A DNA stretch of 64,000 bases from a virus (Duplodnaviria > Caudoviricetes), in the IMG/VR virus record IMGVR_UViG_3300032007_000037, positions 32,001 through 96,000 of that record. The stretch is one strand, 5' to 3'. Within the stretch, counting starts at the first letter, position 1. The number at the start of each line of letters is the position of its first letter. A program made the position numbers and the translations under genes. The notes below the pieces were generated by a model. It was given only the letters and a program-made list of their open reading frames with translations, ran no database searches and had not been told where the DNA came from. This document shows, piece by piece, positions 161 through 4,941 of this stretch.

Positions 161-282
161 GATACATTAGCACAACTGGATAGTGACCCAGACCTTAAAT
201 CACTGTTCTTAACAGGGTCTTGCATGTTGTCGACAGTAGCAAGAGGTGCTGGGAGTTACAGGTTCGAATCCTGCATGTATCT
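161..282 (+). ncRNA. tRNA-like RNA with ~55-nt structured insert replacing the anticodon loop
   Basis: Acceptor GATACAT/ATGTATC; D-arm TAGCACAACTGGATAGTG; stem CCCAG/CTGGG encloses two hairpins (CTGTT-CTT-AACAG and TCTTGC...GCAAGA); T-arm ACAGG-TTCGAAT-CCTGC. Confidence 0.75.
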
Positions 283-287
283 CTGAT

Positions 288-3490: not shown

Positions 3491-3629
3491 GGAATTGATT
3501 GGTGGAACACTGAATCAAGAGAAGTACAGTGGAACAATGGCTCAGCAATCCTGTCTCTCTAAAAGTTCTCTTGAGCTGAAGGGACTGTATAGGTCTTATA
3601 GGAGAGTTCGATTCTCTCCACTTCCACCA
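3491..3629 (+). ncRNA. tRNA-like RNA ending in encoded CCA, with expanded anticodon domain
   Basis: GGAATTG/CACTTCC-A-CCA; T-arm GAGAG-TTCGATT-CTCTC; TCAAGAGAA(3515-3523)/TTCTCTTGA(3566-3574) closes a 42-nt loop; extended D-arm. Confidence 0.65.
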
Positions 3630-3661: not shown

Positions 3662-4450
3662 ATGCAGAAATTAAACGTATTATTAGCATTAAGAGAGAAG
3701 CTAGCTAACCGTTATGCTAACATGGTTGGTGATTACACTGCTTTCTTCAAGAACAAACAAGGTGCTTTTCGTGGTGTTTTAAGAACCCATAGCCCTCTTG
3801 AGGGATATGCTGTAGACCCAACTAAGGTATCAAATGAGAGGGTCGTTACCACTGTCAATGAAAAGATGGATTGGTGGCTTAAAGAAGCTCTTGAGTATAT
3901 CAATACAGCACTTTCCATTGAAGCCAGTAATGGTGAAGGTGCAACTACCGTACCACTGGTATTTGAAGGAAAGACTTATGGCCCTTATCCTGCTACTGTA
4001 CTTCTTCGTCTTAGAGGTATTATAGAAAGTGATAAGTTGGCTCAAATGTTGGCTCAGATTCCTGTAAGAGAGGAAACTATCATATGGAAGCCTTCTACAG
4101 ATGAGGATTATCAGAAGAGGGGTAATATCTTTGAAAATGAGCGTCAGGAAGGTGAAACCAAGACTACTGAAACTCATGAAGAGATTCTCAAAGACCCAAA
4201 TCTTGATCCTAAGGCTCTTCCTTCCAACTATAGAGCACAAGTAACTCAAATTAAGAAGACTGTTAAGACTGGTGATTATACTGTTCAGTTCTTTACAGGT
4301 GAATGGACTCATCAGCAGCGAGCAAATCTTCTTAAGCGTAGAAGTGAATTACTTGATGCCATTAATGTTGCTCTACAGACTGTTAATGACAGAGATGCAG
4401 TTGAATGTAATGTTACAGAGCTTTTCAAGCATCTGATTTATGGTAAATAG
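3662..4450 (+). CDS. uncharacterised 262-aa helical protein, candidate partner of the downstream ncRNA
   Basis: Clean ORF embedded in the RNA island; long N- and C-terminal helices with a beta-rich insert; no catalytic motif recognised. Confidence 0.85.
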   Translation: MQKLNVLLALREKLANRYANMVGDYTAFFKNKQGAFRGVLRTHSPLEGYAVDPTKVSNERVVTTVNEKMDWWLKEALEYINTALSIEASNGEGATTVPLVFEGKTYGPYPATVLLRLRGIIESDKLAQMLAQIPVREETIIWKPSTDEDYQKRGNIFENERQEGETKTTETHEEILKDPNLDPKALPSNYRAQVTQIKKTVKTGDYTVQFFTGEWTHQQRANLLKRRSELLDAINVALQTVNDRDAVECNVTELFKHLIYGK

Positions 4451-4468
4451 AAATTTAAATTAAAATAA

Positions 4469-4757
4469 TTGACCTTAGCTTTAGCCTTATATTAAGCTTT
4501 ATCAAATCCTAGATAGAAAGCATTAATGTTGTGGTCAAAAGCATTATTCAGGTTGATTACAGTATATTACCTATCTGAAGACTACACAGTATCTTGCGAT
4601 ATAGGTTCGATTCCTGTCAGCCCCTCTAATATAACATAAATATGGGGCTGTGGTGTAATGGTTAGCATGTGAGGTTTTTCTAGCTTTAAGTTAAGTGGAT
4701 AGAATGTAATATACAAATGCTTTGGAGGTCAGTATGATGGATTTGTTCGCTGATCTC
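4469..4757 (+). ncRNA. large structured RNA with hexamer repeats and a circularly permuted tRNA-like domain (YrlA-like topology)
   Basis: T-arm 4601-4617, then CAGCCCC/GGGGCTG acceptor closed by a 19-nt linker, then D-arm TGGTGTAATGGTTAGCAT; nested helices CTATCT/GGATAG, GTATATTAC/GTAATATAC, AAGCATT/AATGCTT; TTGACC/GGTCAA loop holds TTAGCT-like hexamers. Confidence 0.75.
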
Positions 4758-4759
4758 TA

Positions 4760-4832
4760 AGCGGGGTAGCTCAATTGGTAGAGCAATAGTCGTGAAAACT
4801 GTGTGTTGTAGGTTCGATCCCTACCCCCGCTA
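4760..4832 (+). tRNA. tRNA with non-canonical anticodon loop (CGTGAAA, G33); identity undetermined
   Basis: AGCGGGG/CCCCGCT; TAGCTCAATTGGTAGAGC; ATAGT-CGTGAAA-ACTGT; GTAGG-TTCGATC-CCTAC; nominal anticodon TGA but no Ser long variable arm. Confidence 0.7.
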
Positions 4833-4839
4833 CTATTAA

Positions 4840-4941
4840 GGCAGAATGTGCGAATGGTATAGCAGTATTACTTTCACTCGATAGTAATATGGGATAAGAT
4901 TCTAGGAATTATCTATGGAGGTTCGAGTCCTTCTTCTGCCA
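4840..4941 (+). ncRNA. class-II tRNA-like RNA with 7-bp anticodon stem and 10-nt loop
   Basis: GGCAGAA/TTCTGCC-A; TATTACT-TTCACTCGAT-AGTAATA; long variable arm; GGAGG-TTCGAGT-CCTTC. Confidence 0.7.

What the first reader, a model, noticed from the sequence alone, without database searches (positions are those of the whole stretch)
3662..4757. Candidate new ribonucleoprotein system: uncharacterised protein plus a large RNA with hexamer repeats and a circularly permuted tRNA mimic
SEEN: 18 nt after the stop of the 262-aa ORF a ~290-nt foldable RNA begins. Stem TTGACC(4469-74)/GGTCAA(4533-38) presents a loop of in-phase hexamers TTAGCT-TTAGCC-TTATAT-TAAGCT-TTATCA, and similar units recur at 4680-4696. 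Nested helices AAGCATT/AATGCTT, GTATATTAC/GTAATATAC and CTATCT/GGATAG lead into a tRNA domain in permuted order: 3' anticodon strand TCTTG, T-arm ATAGG-TTCGATT-CCTGT, acceptor CAGCCCC, 19-nt linker, GGGGCTG, D-arm TGGTGTAATGGTTAGCAT, 5' anticodon strand TGAGG. It has no anticodon and its acceptor end is closed. KNOWN: this topology matches bacterial YrlA Y RNAs (partners of Ro60/Rsr) and two-piece tmRNAs. No Ro60/TROVE or SmpB gene is in the window, there is no G3.U70 pair, and I know of no hexamer loop in either family. INFERENCE: the adjacent helical protein is the cognate binder and oligomerises one subunit per 6 nt, while the tRNA elbow recruits or decoys a host factor (ribosome, PNPase, RNase P or a tRNA-sensing defence).
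Basis: partly seen in the sequence, partly recalled or inferred. Interest (0 to 1): 0.88.

Follow-up and report, generated by a model that had tools for sequence, protein, structure and literature searches.

The report
Phage tRNA-mimic RNA with partner protein
A phage gene of unknown function (DUF7873) is followed, in phages of very different bacteria, by a roughly 290-base structured RNA built around a tRNA whose two halves are in swapped order. This looks like an undescribed RNA-protein pair related in design to bacterial Y RNAs.

Summary
Window 4469-4758 encodes a structured RNA. It has a 5' hairpin domain with AGC-type repeats, a long-range helix, a complete tRNA body in the order 3' half, linker, 5' half, and a 3' hairpin that abuts the next tRNA.

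I found 20 distinct homologues. All stems covary: 18 different acceptor stems, all paired.

The 262-aa ORF is DUF7873. A DUF7873 gene lies directly upstream of such an RNA in 13 close loci and 6 distant metagenomic lineages (27-46% identity). The same holds in cultured Vibrio phage D517 and Rhizobium phage RHph_Y1_11. In Lak megaphages the gene and the RNA lie about 170-180 kb apart, so the RNA is a gene of its own.

The 'anticodon' region is not a decoding loop. The sequence after the discriminator copies that of genuine tRNA genes (C74, or CCA in phages of proteobacteria), so the linker is probably cut out, leaving a two-piece RNA.

A loop of the 5' domain covaries with a loop of a second tRNA-like RNA (4840-4941).

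Rfam YrlA matches distant copies only below threshold. The phage encodes no Ro60, SmpB, RtcB or RNA ligase.

The protein folds confidently (pLDDT 95) with no known relative. Binding and function are untested.

The parts
3662..4450 (+). DUF7873 protein gene (262 aa), candidate protein partner
   Evidence: Pfam PF25283, E 2e-30. 310 cluster representatives, mostly viral. AF2 with MSA gives pLDDT 95 and no known fold relative. It lies directly upstream of the RNA in every non-Lak locus sampled.
4469..4538 (+). Domain A: hairpin closed by TTGACC/GGTCAA, carrying tandem YAGCNU hexamer pairs on both strands
   Evidence: The closing stem covaries in distant homologues. Repeats are shown. It is the best-conserved sequence of the element.
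4508..4513 (+). Domain A loop CCUAGA, complementary to the loop of RNA-2
   Evidence: Four co-varying classes of loop pairs.
4539..4561 (+). Connector with a further AAGCWUUAG repeat
   Evidence: The AAAGC stretch after the closing stem is conserved even in Rhizobium phage RHph_Y1_11.
4562..4577 (+). Helix H, 5' strand
   Evidence: Covariation. A structurally equivalent helix with other sequences is present in L031, L035, L036 and D517. The YrlA model's outer stem aligns here in L036.
4578..4591 (+). Junction strand before the tRNA 3' half
   Evidence: Variable in length (13-25 nt) among homologues.
4592..4625 (+). tRNA 3' half: anticodon-stem 3' strand, variable loop, T arm, acceptor 3' strand, U73
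4626..4643 (+). Linker, starting with C74; probably excised
   Evidence: 19-103 nt in the twelve close homologues (discriminator counted) and unrelated in sequence. The N73-C74 signature matches genuine tRNA genes of these phages. Full CCA is encoded in L017, L019, L035, L038, D517 and RHph_Y1_11.
4644..4674 (+). tRNA 5' half: acceptor 5' strand, U8, D arm, anticodon-stem 5' strand
4675..4696 (+). Junction strand after the tRNA 5' half, with a YAGCWUUAG repeat; not a decoding anticodon loop
   Evidence: The distance from the stem to the repeat is 5-9 nt. The triplet is not conserved, and U33 is missing in L013 and L017.
4697..4714 (+). Helix H, 3' strand, with a conserved 3-nt AAU bulge
4724..4758 (+). 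Hairpin B (outer and inner stems, loop GGAUUU); its 3' end abuts the next tRNA
   Evidence: Both stems covary. A tRNA or tRNA-like RNA follows within 1-3 nt in all close loci.
4760..4833 (+). tRNA whose 5' processing by RNase P would set the 3' end of the RNA
   Evidence: ARAGORN and Rfam.
4840..4941 (+). RNA-2: tRNA-like RNA with loop UCUAGG (4901-4906), complementary to the domain A loop
   Evidence: Rfam tRNA, 38 bits. The loop is conserved and co-varies with domain A. It is present next to the RNA in Lak-A1 as well.

Best explanation
This is a phage ribonucleoprotein module of a Y-RNA-like design. The statement has five parts, marked as shown or inferred.

1. RNA-1 (4469-4758) is a stable non-coding RNA (shown).
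- Its core is a long helix that leads through a junction into a full tRNA body. The chain enters and leaves that body at the anticodon stem.
- The acceptor stem is joined by a disposable linker. This is the topology of bacterial YrlA.

2. Host tRNA enzymes cut the RNA (inferred).
- RNase P cuts at G1 of the internal acceptor and at the 5' end of the downstream tRNA.
- The tRNA 3'-end pathway and the CCA-adding enzyme act after U73-C74.
- The product is a two-piece RNA with a CCA end, held together by the acceptor stem, the anticodon stem and helix H.

3. The tRNA body supplies shape only. It carries no anticodon and does not decode (shown).

4. The sequence-constrained parts are the working surfaces (inferred).
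- These are domain A with its tandem hexamers, the junction repeat and hairpin B.
- The repeats bind the co-inherited DUF7873 protein.
- The CCUAGA loop of domain A docks the UCUAGG loop of a second tRNA-like RNA (RNA-2).

5. The assembled particle presents one or two tRNA-shaped modules to host machinery that recognises tRNA shape (speculative).
- Candidates are RNA decay and quality control, RNase P, CCA enzymes, EF-Tu and the ribosome.
- The parallel is Y RNA, which tethers Ro60 to PNPase.
For: - RNA reality and architecture: 20 homologues with covarying acceptor, T, D and anticodon stems, helix H, the domain A stem and hairpin B. The detector is specific.
- Pairing with DUF7873: adjacency in 13 close loci, in 6 distant metagenomic lineages, and in cultured Vibrio phage D517 and Rhizobium phage RHph_Y1_11. 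Chance expectation is about 0.005 per locus. Lak-A1 and Lak-B2 carry one copy of each at separate sites.
- Processing: the trailer begins C74 in 20/20 copies. The same N73-C74 signature is seen in genuine tRNA genes of these phages. G73-CCA is encoded in L038 and in the phages of proteobacteria, whose hosts, as I recall, encode CCA. Linker length and sequence are free. Hairpin B abuts a tRNA. As precedent, M. smegmatis YrlA with a 7-bp acceptor is cut by RNase P and gains CCA in vivo (PMC4201824).
- Not decoding.
- YrlA-like design: RF02553 aligns full-length at 37-38 bits to L035 and L036.
- RNA-2 docking: the loop pairs change together in four classes. These are UCCUAGA/UCUAGGA, UCCCAGA/UCUGGGA (L007, L030), UCCUAGC/GCUAGGA (L035) and a 10-nt match in L036 that no control window reaches. 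The RNA-1, tRNA, RNA-2 trio is also kept in Lak-A1.
- Repeats track the protein lineage.
Against: - No binding data of any kind exist.
- DUF7873 is mildly acidic (median pI 6.4).
- DUF7873 has no recognisable RNA-binding fold or catalytic motif.
- Hexamer phase is loose, and lag-6 is not significant in this window.
- Conserved adjacency could reflect co-transcription or regulation rather than a complex.
- The loop-loop match is only 6-7 nt in most loci. That length is common by chance in AT-rich DNA (controls), so the case rests on position and on a few compensatory events.
- L031 seems to lack RNA-2 and has a local hairpin at that place.
- Cleavage of the linker is inferred from sequence only.
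- The host partner is unknown.
Confidence: 0.45

Rival explanations
1. It is a true YrlA-type Y RNA that works with the host's Ro60 (Rsr). DUF7873 is an unrelated or accessory neighbour.
For: - It has the same permuted topology as YrlA.
- Sub-threshold full-length YrlA hits occur in L035 and L036.
- Bacteroides thetaiotaomicron, one of the search's control genomes, has a TROVE gene, so a Bacteroidota host may have Ro60.
Against: - The window's RNA gives no YrlA hit even at E 10.
- The best scores are 37-38 bits against a threshold of 69.
- The GNCGAAN0-1G motif is absent from all 17 of the 5' flanks checked.
- The D and T stems vary freely, whereas they are nearly invariant in YrlA (PMC4201824).
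- No TROVE gene is in the phage genome.
- The conserved neighbour is DUF7873, not rsr.
Confidence: 0.15
2. It is a cis-acting or autoregulatory RNA element of the DUF7873 transcript. It could be a 3' tRNA-like end that stabilises the mRNA, or an operator through which the protein controls its own synthesis. In this reading it is not a free RNP.
For: - The RNA starts 14-250 nt after the stop codon.
- No terminator lies in between.
- Gene and RNA are on the same strand in all non-Lak loci.
Against: - In the Lak-A1 and Lak-B2 genomes searched, the RNA lies about 170-180 kb from the gene, behind its own intergenic region, and the gene has its own terminator.
- Several loci have a small ORF between gene and RNA.
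- The RNA-2 docking loop and hairpin B are not explained.
Confidence: 0.1
3. It is a genuine circularly permuted tRNA gene, as in the red alga Cyanidioschyzon merolae. The flanks bring the anticodon-loop halves together, the ends are cut and ligated, the linker is removed and a decoding tRNA results.
For: - The tRNA body is complete and canonical.
- Most copies have UU plus a triplet after the anticodon stem.
- The acceptor trailer looks like that of real tRNA genes.
Against: - No joining rule gives a 7-nt loop with U33 and a purine at 37 across homologues.
- The distance to the conserved flank motif varies from 5 to 9 nt.
- L013 and L017 lack U33.
- Close relatives differ in the triplet, including A34 forms.
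- The genome already has tRNA-Lys(UUU).
- The phage encodes no RtcB, Rnl1/Rnl2 or splicing endonuclease.
- The flanks are far more conserved than a mere pairing clamp needs.
Confidence: 0.07
4. The conserved flanks are a split self-processing ribozyme, for example a permuted intron, that cuts or ligates at the anticodon-side junction.
For: - The flanks are strongly sequence-conserved and fold around the junction.
- GACUA-like and GUAUAUUAC strings recall group I and hairpin ribozyme cores, from my own recollection of those sequences.
Against: - No Rfam ribozyme or intron hit at E 10.
- GUAUAUUAC is a covarying helix strand, not a loop.
- The GACUA string is absent in L007, L010 and L013.
- The helix order does not fit the group I layout of P3 to P9.
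- Distant homologues share the architecture but not these strings.
Confidence: 0.05
5. It is a two-piece tmRNA-like RNA for ribosome rescue.
For: - The gene order matches that of permuted ssrA.
- Weak hits to cyano_tmRNA and tmRNA_permuted cover the T arm, acceptor and linker.
Against: - Scores are 22-23 bits against thresholds of 47-70.
- Position 3:70 is G3-C70, not G3-U70.
- The 8-codon ORF in hairpin B is not conserved, and that region covaries as RNA.
- The D arm is full.
- The phage encodes no SmpB.
Confidence: 0.03

Closest known systems
YrlA, the bacterial and phage Y RNA-like family (Rfam RF02553), partner of Ro60/Rsr
   Same: - The tRNA-like domain is in the order T arm, acceptor stem-loop, D arm.
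- The chain ends leave through the anticodon side into a long helix.
[quoted passage not shown]
- The RNA is encoded next to its presumed protein partner, also in phages.
- The YrlA model aligns end to end with L035 and L036.
   Different: - Scores are below threshold, and this window gives no hit.
- There is no GNCGAA Ro-binding motif.
- The D and T stems are not sequence-conserved.
- There is a 95-nt 5' domain with hexamer repeats and a 3' hairpin that YrlA lacks.
- The neighbour is DUF7873, not a TROVE protein.
- It has a second RNA partner.
Two-piece tmRNA from circularly permuted ssrA genes (alpha-proteobacteria, cyanobacteria)
   Same: - The gene order is permuted.
- Removal of an intervening segment gives two base-paired pieces with a CCA end.
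- The anticodon arm is replaced by a long helix leading to further domains.
   Different: - There is no tag reading frame, no G3-U70 pair and no pseudoknots.
- The D arm is full.
- The phage has no SmpB gene.
Circularly permuted tRNA genes of Cyanidioschyzon merolae and some other algae and archaea
   Same: The 3' half lies upstream of the 5' half, the acceptor ends are joined by a linker, and leader and trailer pair with each other.
   Different: - Those yield decoding tRNAs through a bulge-helix-bulge cut and ligation.
- Here no functional anticodon loop can be restored.
- No such enzymes are encoded in the phage.
phi29 packaging RNA (pRNA), from my own recollection and not checked here
   Same: It is a phage-encoded structured RNA that assembles through covarying loop-loop pairs and works with phage proteins.
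   Different: - There is no sequence or structural relation.
- pRNA has no tRNA-like domain.
- pRNA forms homo-oligomers on the portal.

Membership tests
YrlA / Y RNA-like (RF02553) | tRNA-like domain in the order T arm, acceptor stem-loop, D arm, entered from a terminal helix | tested here: met
.
YrlA / Y RNA-like (RF02553) | Reaches the Rfam gathering score (69 bits) | tested here: not met
   No hit in the window at E 10. L036 scores 37.7 bits and L035 37.0 bits.
YrlA / Y RNA-like (RF02553) | GNCGAAN0-1G motif near the 5' end (presumed Ro60 contact; PMC4201824) | tested here: not met
   Absent from all 17 of the 5' flanks checked.
YrlA / Y RNA-like (RF02553) | Encoded within about 4 kb of a Ro60/TROVE gene on the same strand | tested here: not met
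   No TROVE match in the complete 131-kb phage genome. The conserved neighbour is DUF7873.
YrlA / Y RNA-like (RF02553) | Binds Ro60/Rsr | not testable with these tools
   Needs immunoprecipitation or a gel shift with the host's Rsr.
Two-piece (permuted) tmRNA | Reaches the Rfam gathering score for a tmRNA family | tested here: not met
   cyano_tmRNA scores 22.7 bits against 70. tmRNA_permuted scores 22.1 against 47. Both cover only the T arm, acceptor and linker. ARAGORN finds no tmRNA.
Two-piece (permuted) tmRNA | G3-U70 alanine identity pair | tested here: not met
   The window has G3-C70. None of the acceptor stems printed has G3-U70.
Two-piece (permuted) tmRNA | Conserved tag reading frame | tested here: not met
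   The 8-codon ORF at 4735-4761 is lost in homologues by an indel. The region covaries as a hairpin.
Circularly permuted tRNA gene yielding a decoding tRNA | 3' half, linker, 5' half, with all four tRNA stems | tested here: met
Circularly permuted tRNA gene yielding a decoding tRNA | Joining the ends restores a 7-nt anticodon loop (U33, purine 37) with a conserved identity | tested here: not met
   No consistent junction exists, U33 is absent in L013 and L017, and the triplet is unstable among close relatives.
Circularly permuted tRNA gene yielding a decoding tRNA | Splicing endonuclease and RNA ligase available | tested here: inconclusive
   None is encoded in the phage. A host RtcB is possible, since the Bacteroides control genome is positive.
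Group I or other self-processing ribozyme | Match to a known ribozyme or intron model | tested here: inconclusive
   No Rfam hit at E 10. A split or permuted ribozyme would escape these models, and I could not rescan a re-permuted sequence.
DUF7873 (PF25283) | Pfam gathering score (27 bits) over the full length | tested here: met
   106.7 bits, residues 1-253.

The most novel reading that the evidence does not exclude
DUF7873, RNA-1 and RNA-2 together form a new class of phage ribonucleoprotein.
- A non-Ro protein reads tandem hexamer repeats whose sequence co-evolves with it.
- Two tRNA-shaped RNAs are locked together by a codon-anticodon-like loop pair: UAG/CUA in most copies, CAG/CUG in L007 and L030.
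- The particle would mimic a tRNA pair on mRNA and hijack or sense host translation, release-factor or tRNA-surveillance machinery.
- It may be linked to the amber-suppressor biology of Lak-type phages.
Probability: 0.2. Interest if true: 0.92.

Novelty: new variant of a known kind. Interest (0 to 1): 0.8.

Why it matters
tRNA mimicry by non-coding RNAs is known from tmRNA, YrlA and a few other families, and each has taught something about how cells read tRNA shape.

- This is a widespread phage version with a different, structurally novel protein partner. The protein family has 310 cluster representatives, mostly viral.
- Its hosts include Bacteroidota (among them the 540-kb Lak megaphages), Vibrio and Rhizobium.
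- It has an extra repeat-bearing domain and a second tRNA-like RNA that docks by a covarying loop.
- It gives a first functional context to DUF7873.
- It offers a possible reading for part of the odd 'tRNA-like' RNAs that crowd phage tRNA arrays.
- Two carriers are cultured phages, so the ideas can be tested at the bench at once.

Tried and rejected
- Group I or permuted-intron reading: the helix order does not fit and there is no Rfam hit.
- Hairpin-ribozyme resemblance (GUAUAUUAC, AGAAA): the first string is a covarying helix strand and the second is not conserved.
- Bulge-helix-bulge splice motif: no consistent 3-nt bulges and no endonuclease.
- Decoding tRNA by any fixed junction: rejected, see the rival explanations.
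- Tag ORF in hairpin B: not conserved.
- Kissing of the hairpin B loop GGAUUU with AAAUCC of domain A: compatible among close relatives only through wobble changes, and not kept in L030 or L036. Left open and not claimed.
- TAG recoding of this phage: coverage under the standard code is 83.5%, and TAG=sense gains less than the TGA and TAA controls.
- Cas7/RAMP likeness of DUF7873: only scattered Foldseek rows at E 0.03-0.09 with TM about 0.1. None appears in the VIA-align wide search, where the best Z is 7.1 on helical bundles. Not supported.
- Single-sequence AF2 model: useless, pLDDT 35.
- PHROGs, PADLOC and PDB sequence searches: nothing.
- Metallophos neighbour seen in L031 and L035: absent from this genome.
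- The search for related loci in genome contigs failed with alignments A3 and A4 because no stretch was conserved enough.
- Six of the 18 metagenome pattern hits were an ABC-transporter gene or other chance matches.
Full report
**Setting**

The window is bases 32001-96000 of a complete 131,166-bp phage record with direct terminal repeats. The finding lies in a dense RNA island. It holds tRNAs at 288, 466, 3307 and 4760 and several odd tRNA-like elements. Distant DNA similarity is to Prevotella Lak megaphages. The genome reads well in the standard code.

**The observation**

Read 5' to 3', the element is:
- a hairpin domain (domain A, 4469-4538) closed by TTGACC/GGTCAA;
- a connector;
- the 5' strand of a long helix (H, 4562-4577);
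- a 14-nt junction strand;
- the 3' half of a tRNA (4592-4625);
- an 18-nt linker;
- the 5' half of the tRNA (4644-4674);
- a 22-nt junction strand;
- the 3' strand of H with an AAU bulge (4697-4714);
- a terminal hairpin (B, 4724-4758), ending two bases before the next tRNA.

On its own the RNA folds only modestly better than shuffles (z -2.4).

**Homologues**

I gathered homologues from four sources.
- Protein-guided and pattern scans of viral contigs gave four.
- A gapped pattern scan of metagenomes gave 12 true hits among 18.
- After removing duplicates, 11 distinct close elements remained.
- Distant ones came from representatives of the protein family: L030, L031, L034, L035, L036/37 and L038/39.
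- Further copies came from Lak-A1 and Lak-B2 and from two cultured phages, Vibrio phage D517 and Rhizobium phage RHph_Y1_11.

**Structure**

The 20 parsed elements (Lak-B2 was not parsed) share the following.
- A 7-bp acceptor stem, with 18 different sequences.
- A 5-bp T stem with a TTCRANY-type loop.
- U8.
- A D arm, with a GG-containing loop in 19 of the 20.
- A 5-bp anticodon stem, paired at 93 of 100 positions, with 18 different sequences.

Other helices are supported as follows.
- Helix H covaries strongly among close relatives (5 of 7 inner pairs).
- Helix H is replaced by unrelated but complementary sequences in L031, L035, L036 and D517.
- The domain A closing stem never varies among close relatives. 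In distant ones it changes compensatorily.
- Both stems of hairpin B covary.

My permuted-tRNA detector finds 1-5 hits per shuffled 131-kb genome on both strands. On the real plus strand it finds only this site. Finding one in the few hundred bases after each DUF7873 gene is therefore far beyond chance.

**It is not a decoding tRNA**

- After the anticodon-stem 5' strand most copies read UU plus three bases, but the triplet differs even between close relatives: UUU, UAA, UAG, GAA, AAA, AGU, CAA.
- L013 and L017 lack U33.
- The distance to the next conserved motif varies from 5 to 9 nt.
- No single joining rule gives a 7-nt loop with a purine at 37.
- The genome already has a normal tRNA-Lys(UUU).
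- The phage encodes no RtcB, Rnl1, Rnl2 or tRNA splicing endonuclease.

**The acceptor end is probably opened**

- The linker ranges from 19 to 103 nt in the close homologues (discriminator counted) and has unrelated sequences and hairpins.
- What follows the discriminator is nevertheless fixed. C74 is present in 20 of 20 copies and A76 in most.
- Genuine tRNA genes of these phages show the same N73-C74 signature without a full CCA.
- The Vibrio, Rhizobium and L038 copies encode G73-CCA. From my own knowledge, tRNA genes of proteobacteria generally encode CCA.
- Four Bacteroidota-type copies have none of these extras beyond U73-C74; three others (L017, L019, L035) read U73-CCA.
- So the element copies the local style of tRNA 3' ends, which makes sense only if that end is matured.
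- With a 7-bp acceptor, RNase P cleavage at G1 is expected. M. smegmatis YrlA behaves exactly so (PMC4201824).
- The 3' end of the whole RNA would be set by RNase P acting on the abutting tRNA.
- The product would be a two-piece RNA held by the acceptor stem, the anticodon stem and helix H. This is inference from sequence.

**The repeats**

In other copies the first two or three are in phase and later ones slip by 1-2 nt.
- A broader alignment shows tandem pairs of YAGCNU in five places:
  - just inside the closing stem on the 5' strand;
  - mid-loop;
  - just inside the closing stem on the 3' strand;
  - just after the closing stem;
  - directly after the anticodon stem.
- Lag 6 is the strongest autocorrelation lag in several lineages (z 2-3.4), but not in this window (z 0.3).
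- The unit differs with lineage: YAGCUU in Bacteroidota-type copies, CAAACU in the Vibrio and Rhizobium phages, GAUCAG in GC-rich L038.
- A 14-nt string around the closing stem (GGTCAAAAGCTTCA) is shared between L013 or L020 and the Rhizobium phage.

**The protein**

- ORF 3662-4450 is DUF7873.
- The family has 310 cluster representatives at E 0.001 or better and is mostly viral.
- With a 101-sequence alignment AF2 gives pLDDT 95. The model has three long helices, a small sheet and a long beta hairpin.
- Foldseek against PDB and BFVD finds nothing at E 0.001 or better. The wide VIA-align search gives only helical-bundle matches, best Z 7.1.
- There is no PDB sequence relative, no PHROG and no PADLOC model.
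- Only N90 and P134 are invariant, which does not look like an enzyme.
- The family is mildly acidic (median pI 6.4).

**The link between protein and RNA**

- All 13 close loci with enough flank have DUF7873 14-250 nt upstream.
- So do all six distant metagenomic lineages (27-46% identity) and both cultured phages (24-26%).
- In Lak-A1 the gene is followed by a terminator and a reverse-strand gene.
- A covariance model of the 5' two-thirds of the RNA finds one strong copy in Lak-A1 and one in Lak-B2, about 180 kb and 166 kb from the gene. Scores are 93.5 and 79.4 bits.
- That copy has no DUF7873 beside it.
- The RNA is therefore a gene of its own and co-occurs with DUF7873 at genome level. This argues for a functional pair and against a mere 3' UTR element.

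**A second RNA**

- Domain A's loop reads CCUAGA (4508-4513).
- The tRNA-like RNA at 4840-4941 has the loop UCUAGG (4901-4906).
- Both are otherwise invariant among close relatives, yet they change together:
  - CCCAGA with UCUGGG in L007 and in distant L030;
  - UCCUAGC with GCUAGGA in L035;
  - a 10-nt match, UCCUAGCAAU with AUUGCUAGGA, in L036. None of 24 control windows reaches that length.
- In L036 the change removes the would-be U33 of RNA-2, so the pairing, not decoding, is what is kept.
- The order RNA-1, tRNA, RNA-2 is also kept in Lak-A1.
- Caveats: 6-7-nt matches are common by chance in this AT-rich DNA (controls). L031 seems to lack RNA-2 and has a local hairpin at that place.

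**Comparison with known families**

- Rfam gives no hit above threshold for the element in any lineage.
- The window shows only 22-23-bit hits to permuted tmRNA models over the T arm, acceptor and linker.
- L035 and L036 give full-length YrlA alignments at 37-38 bits against a threshold of 69. The YrlA outer stem falls on helix H.
- YrlA's defining extras are missing:
  - no GNCGAA motif;
  - no sequence-invariant D and T stems;
  - no TROVE gene in the phage.
- tmRNA features are also missing: no G3-U70 pair, no tag frame and no SmpB.
- I found no paper describing this element or DUF7873.

**Verdict**

This is a real, conserved, undescribed phage RNA of YrlA-like design with added domains. 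It is genetically coupled to a structurally novel protein and probably to a second tRNA-like RNA.
- Shown by comparative evidence: the RNA, its architecture, the coupling, and the non-decoding nature.
- Inferred from sequence: processing into two pieces with a CCA end, and docking of RNA-2.
- Open: binding of DUF7873 to the hexamer repeats, and the cellular target.

Noticed in passing
window 4840-4941 (loop 4901-4906): A tRNA-like RNA (Rfam tRNA, 38 bits; ARAGORN misses it without introns) with two hairpins between the D and T arms. The second hairpin has a conserved UUCUAGG loop closed by A-A. In L035 the CUAGG hairpin sits in the anticodon-arm position, followed by a long variable arm. In the window and in Lak-A1 it is the second hairpin.
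   Followed up: partly
window 4760-4833 and its counterparts in L004, L005, L013, L017: The tRNA right after the element has an anticodon loop CG-NNN-AA with G at position 33. Its triplet differs between close relatives (TGA, CCA, CTA, ATT, ATC) while the stem is conserved. This is unusual for a decoding tRNA.
   Followed up: no
window 3491-3629: A tRNA-like element with a clean T arm and an encoded ACCA end lies just upstream of the DUF7873 gene. Rfam tmRNA gives 24.7 bits, with most of the model deleted. Relatives have different structures at this place, for example a 12-bp acceptor/T minihelix in L004 around 2920-2950.
   Followed up: no
linkers of L004, L005, L010, L013, L017, L026 (for example L004:4062-4132): The long linkers between the acceptor strands carry hairpins with GUGA/GUGAAA-type loops and a UUCG tetraloop. 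These resemble the GUGA-loop hairpins that another first-stage note reports elsewhere in this genome.
   Followed up: no
L005:2700-2960 and L005:4400-4470: Several hairpins share an ACAGCAAA-type loop motif and are packed between tRNAs. They may be another small-RNA family of these phages.
   Followed up: no
window 9571-10149 and 10844-11890: Two HNH/NUMOD homing-endonuclease-like genes lie close together downstream of the RNA island.
   Followed up: no
L031:1395-1944 and L031:4192-4959; L035:167-898: In two distant lineages the DUF7873-RNA pair lies near a calcineurin-type metallophosphoesterase gene. In L031 it also lies next to a ParDE toxin-antitoxin pair. The window's genome has no Metallophos match.
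   Followed up: partly
genome 31388-31474, 32161-32283, 39575-39725 (window 161-283, 7575-7725): With introns allowed, ARAGORN calls further tRNA-like genes with 12-64-nt inserts in the anticodon region. The phage has no splicing endonuclease or RNA ligase gene.
   Followed up: no
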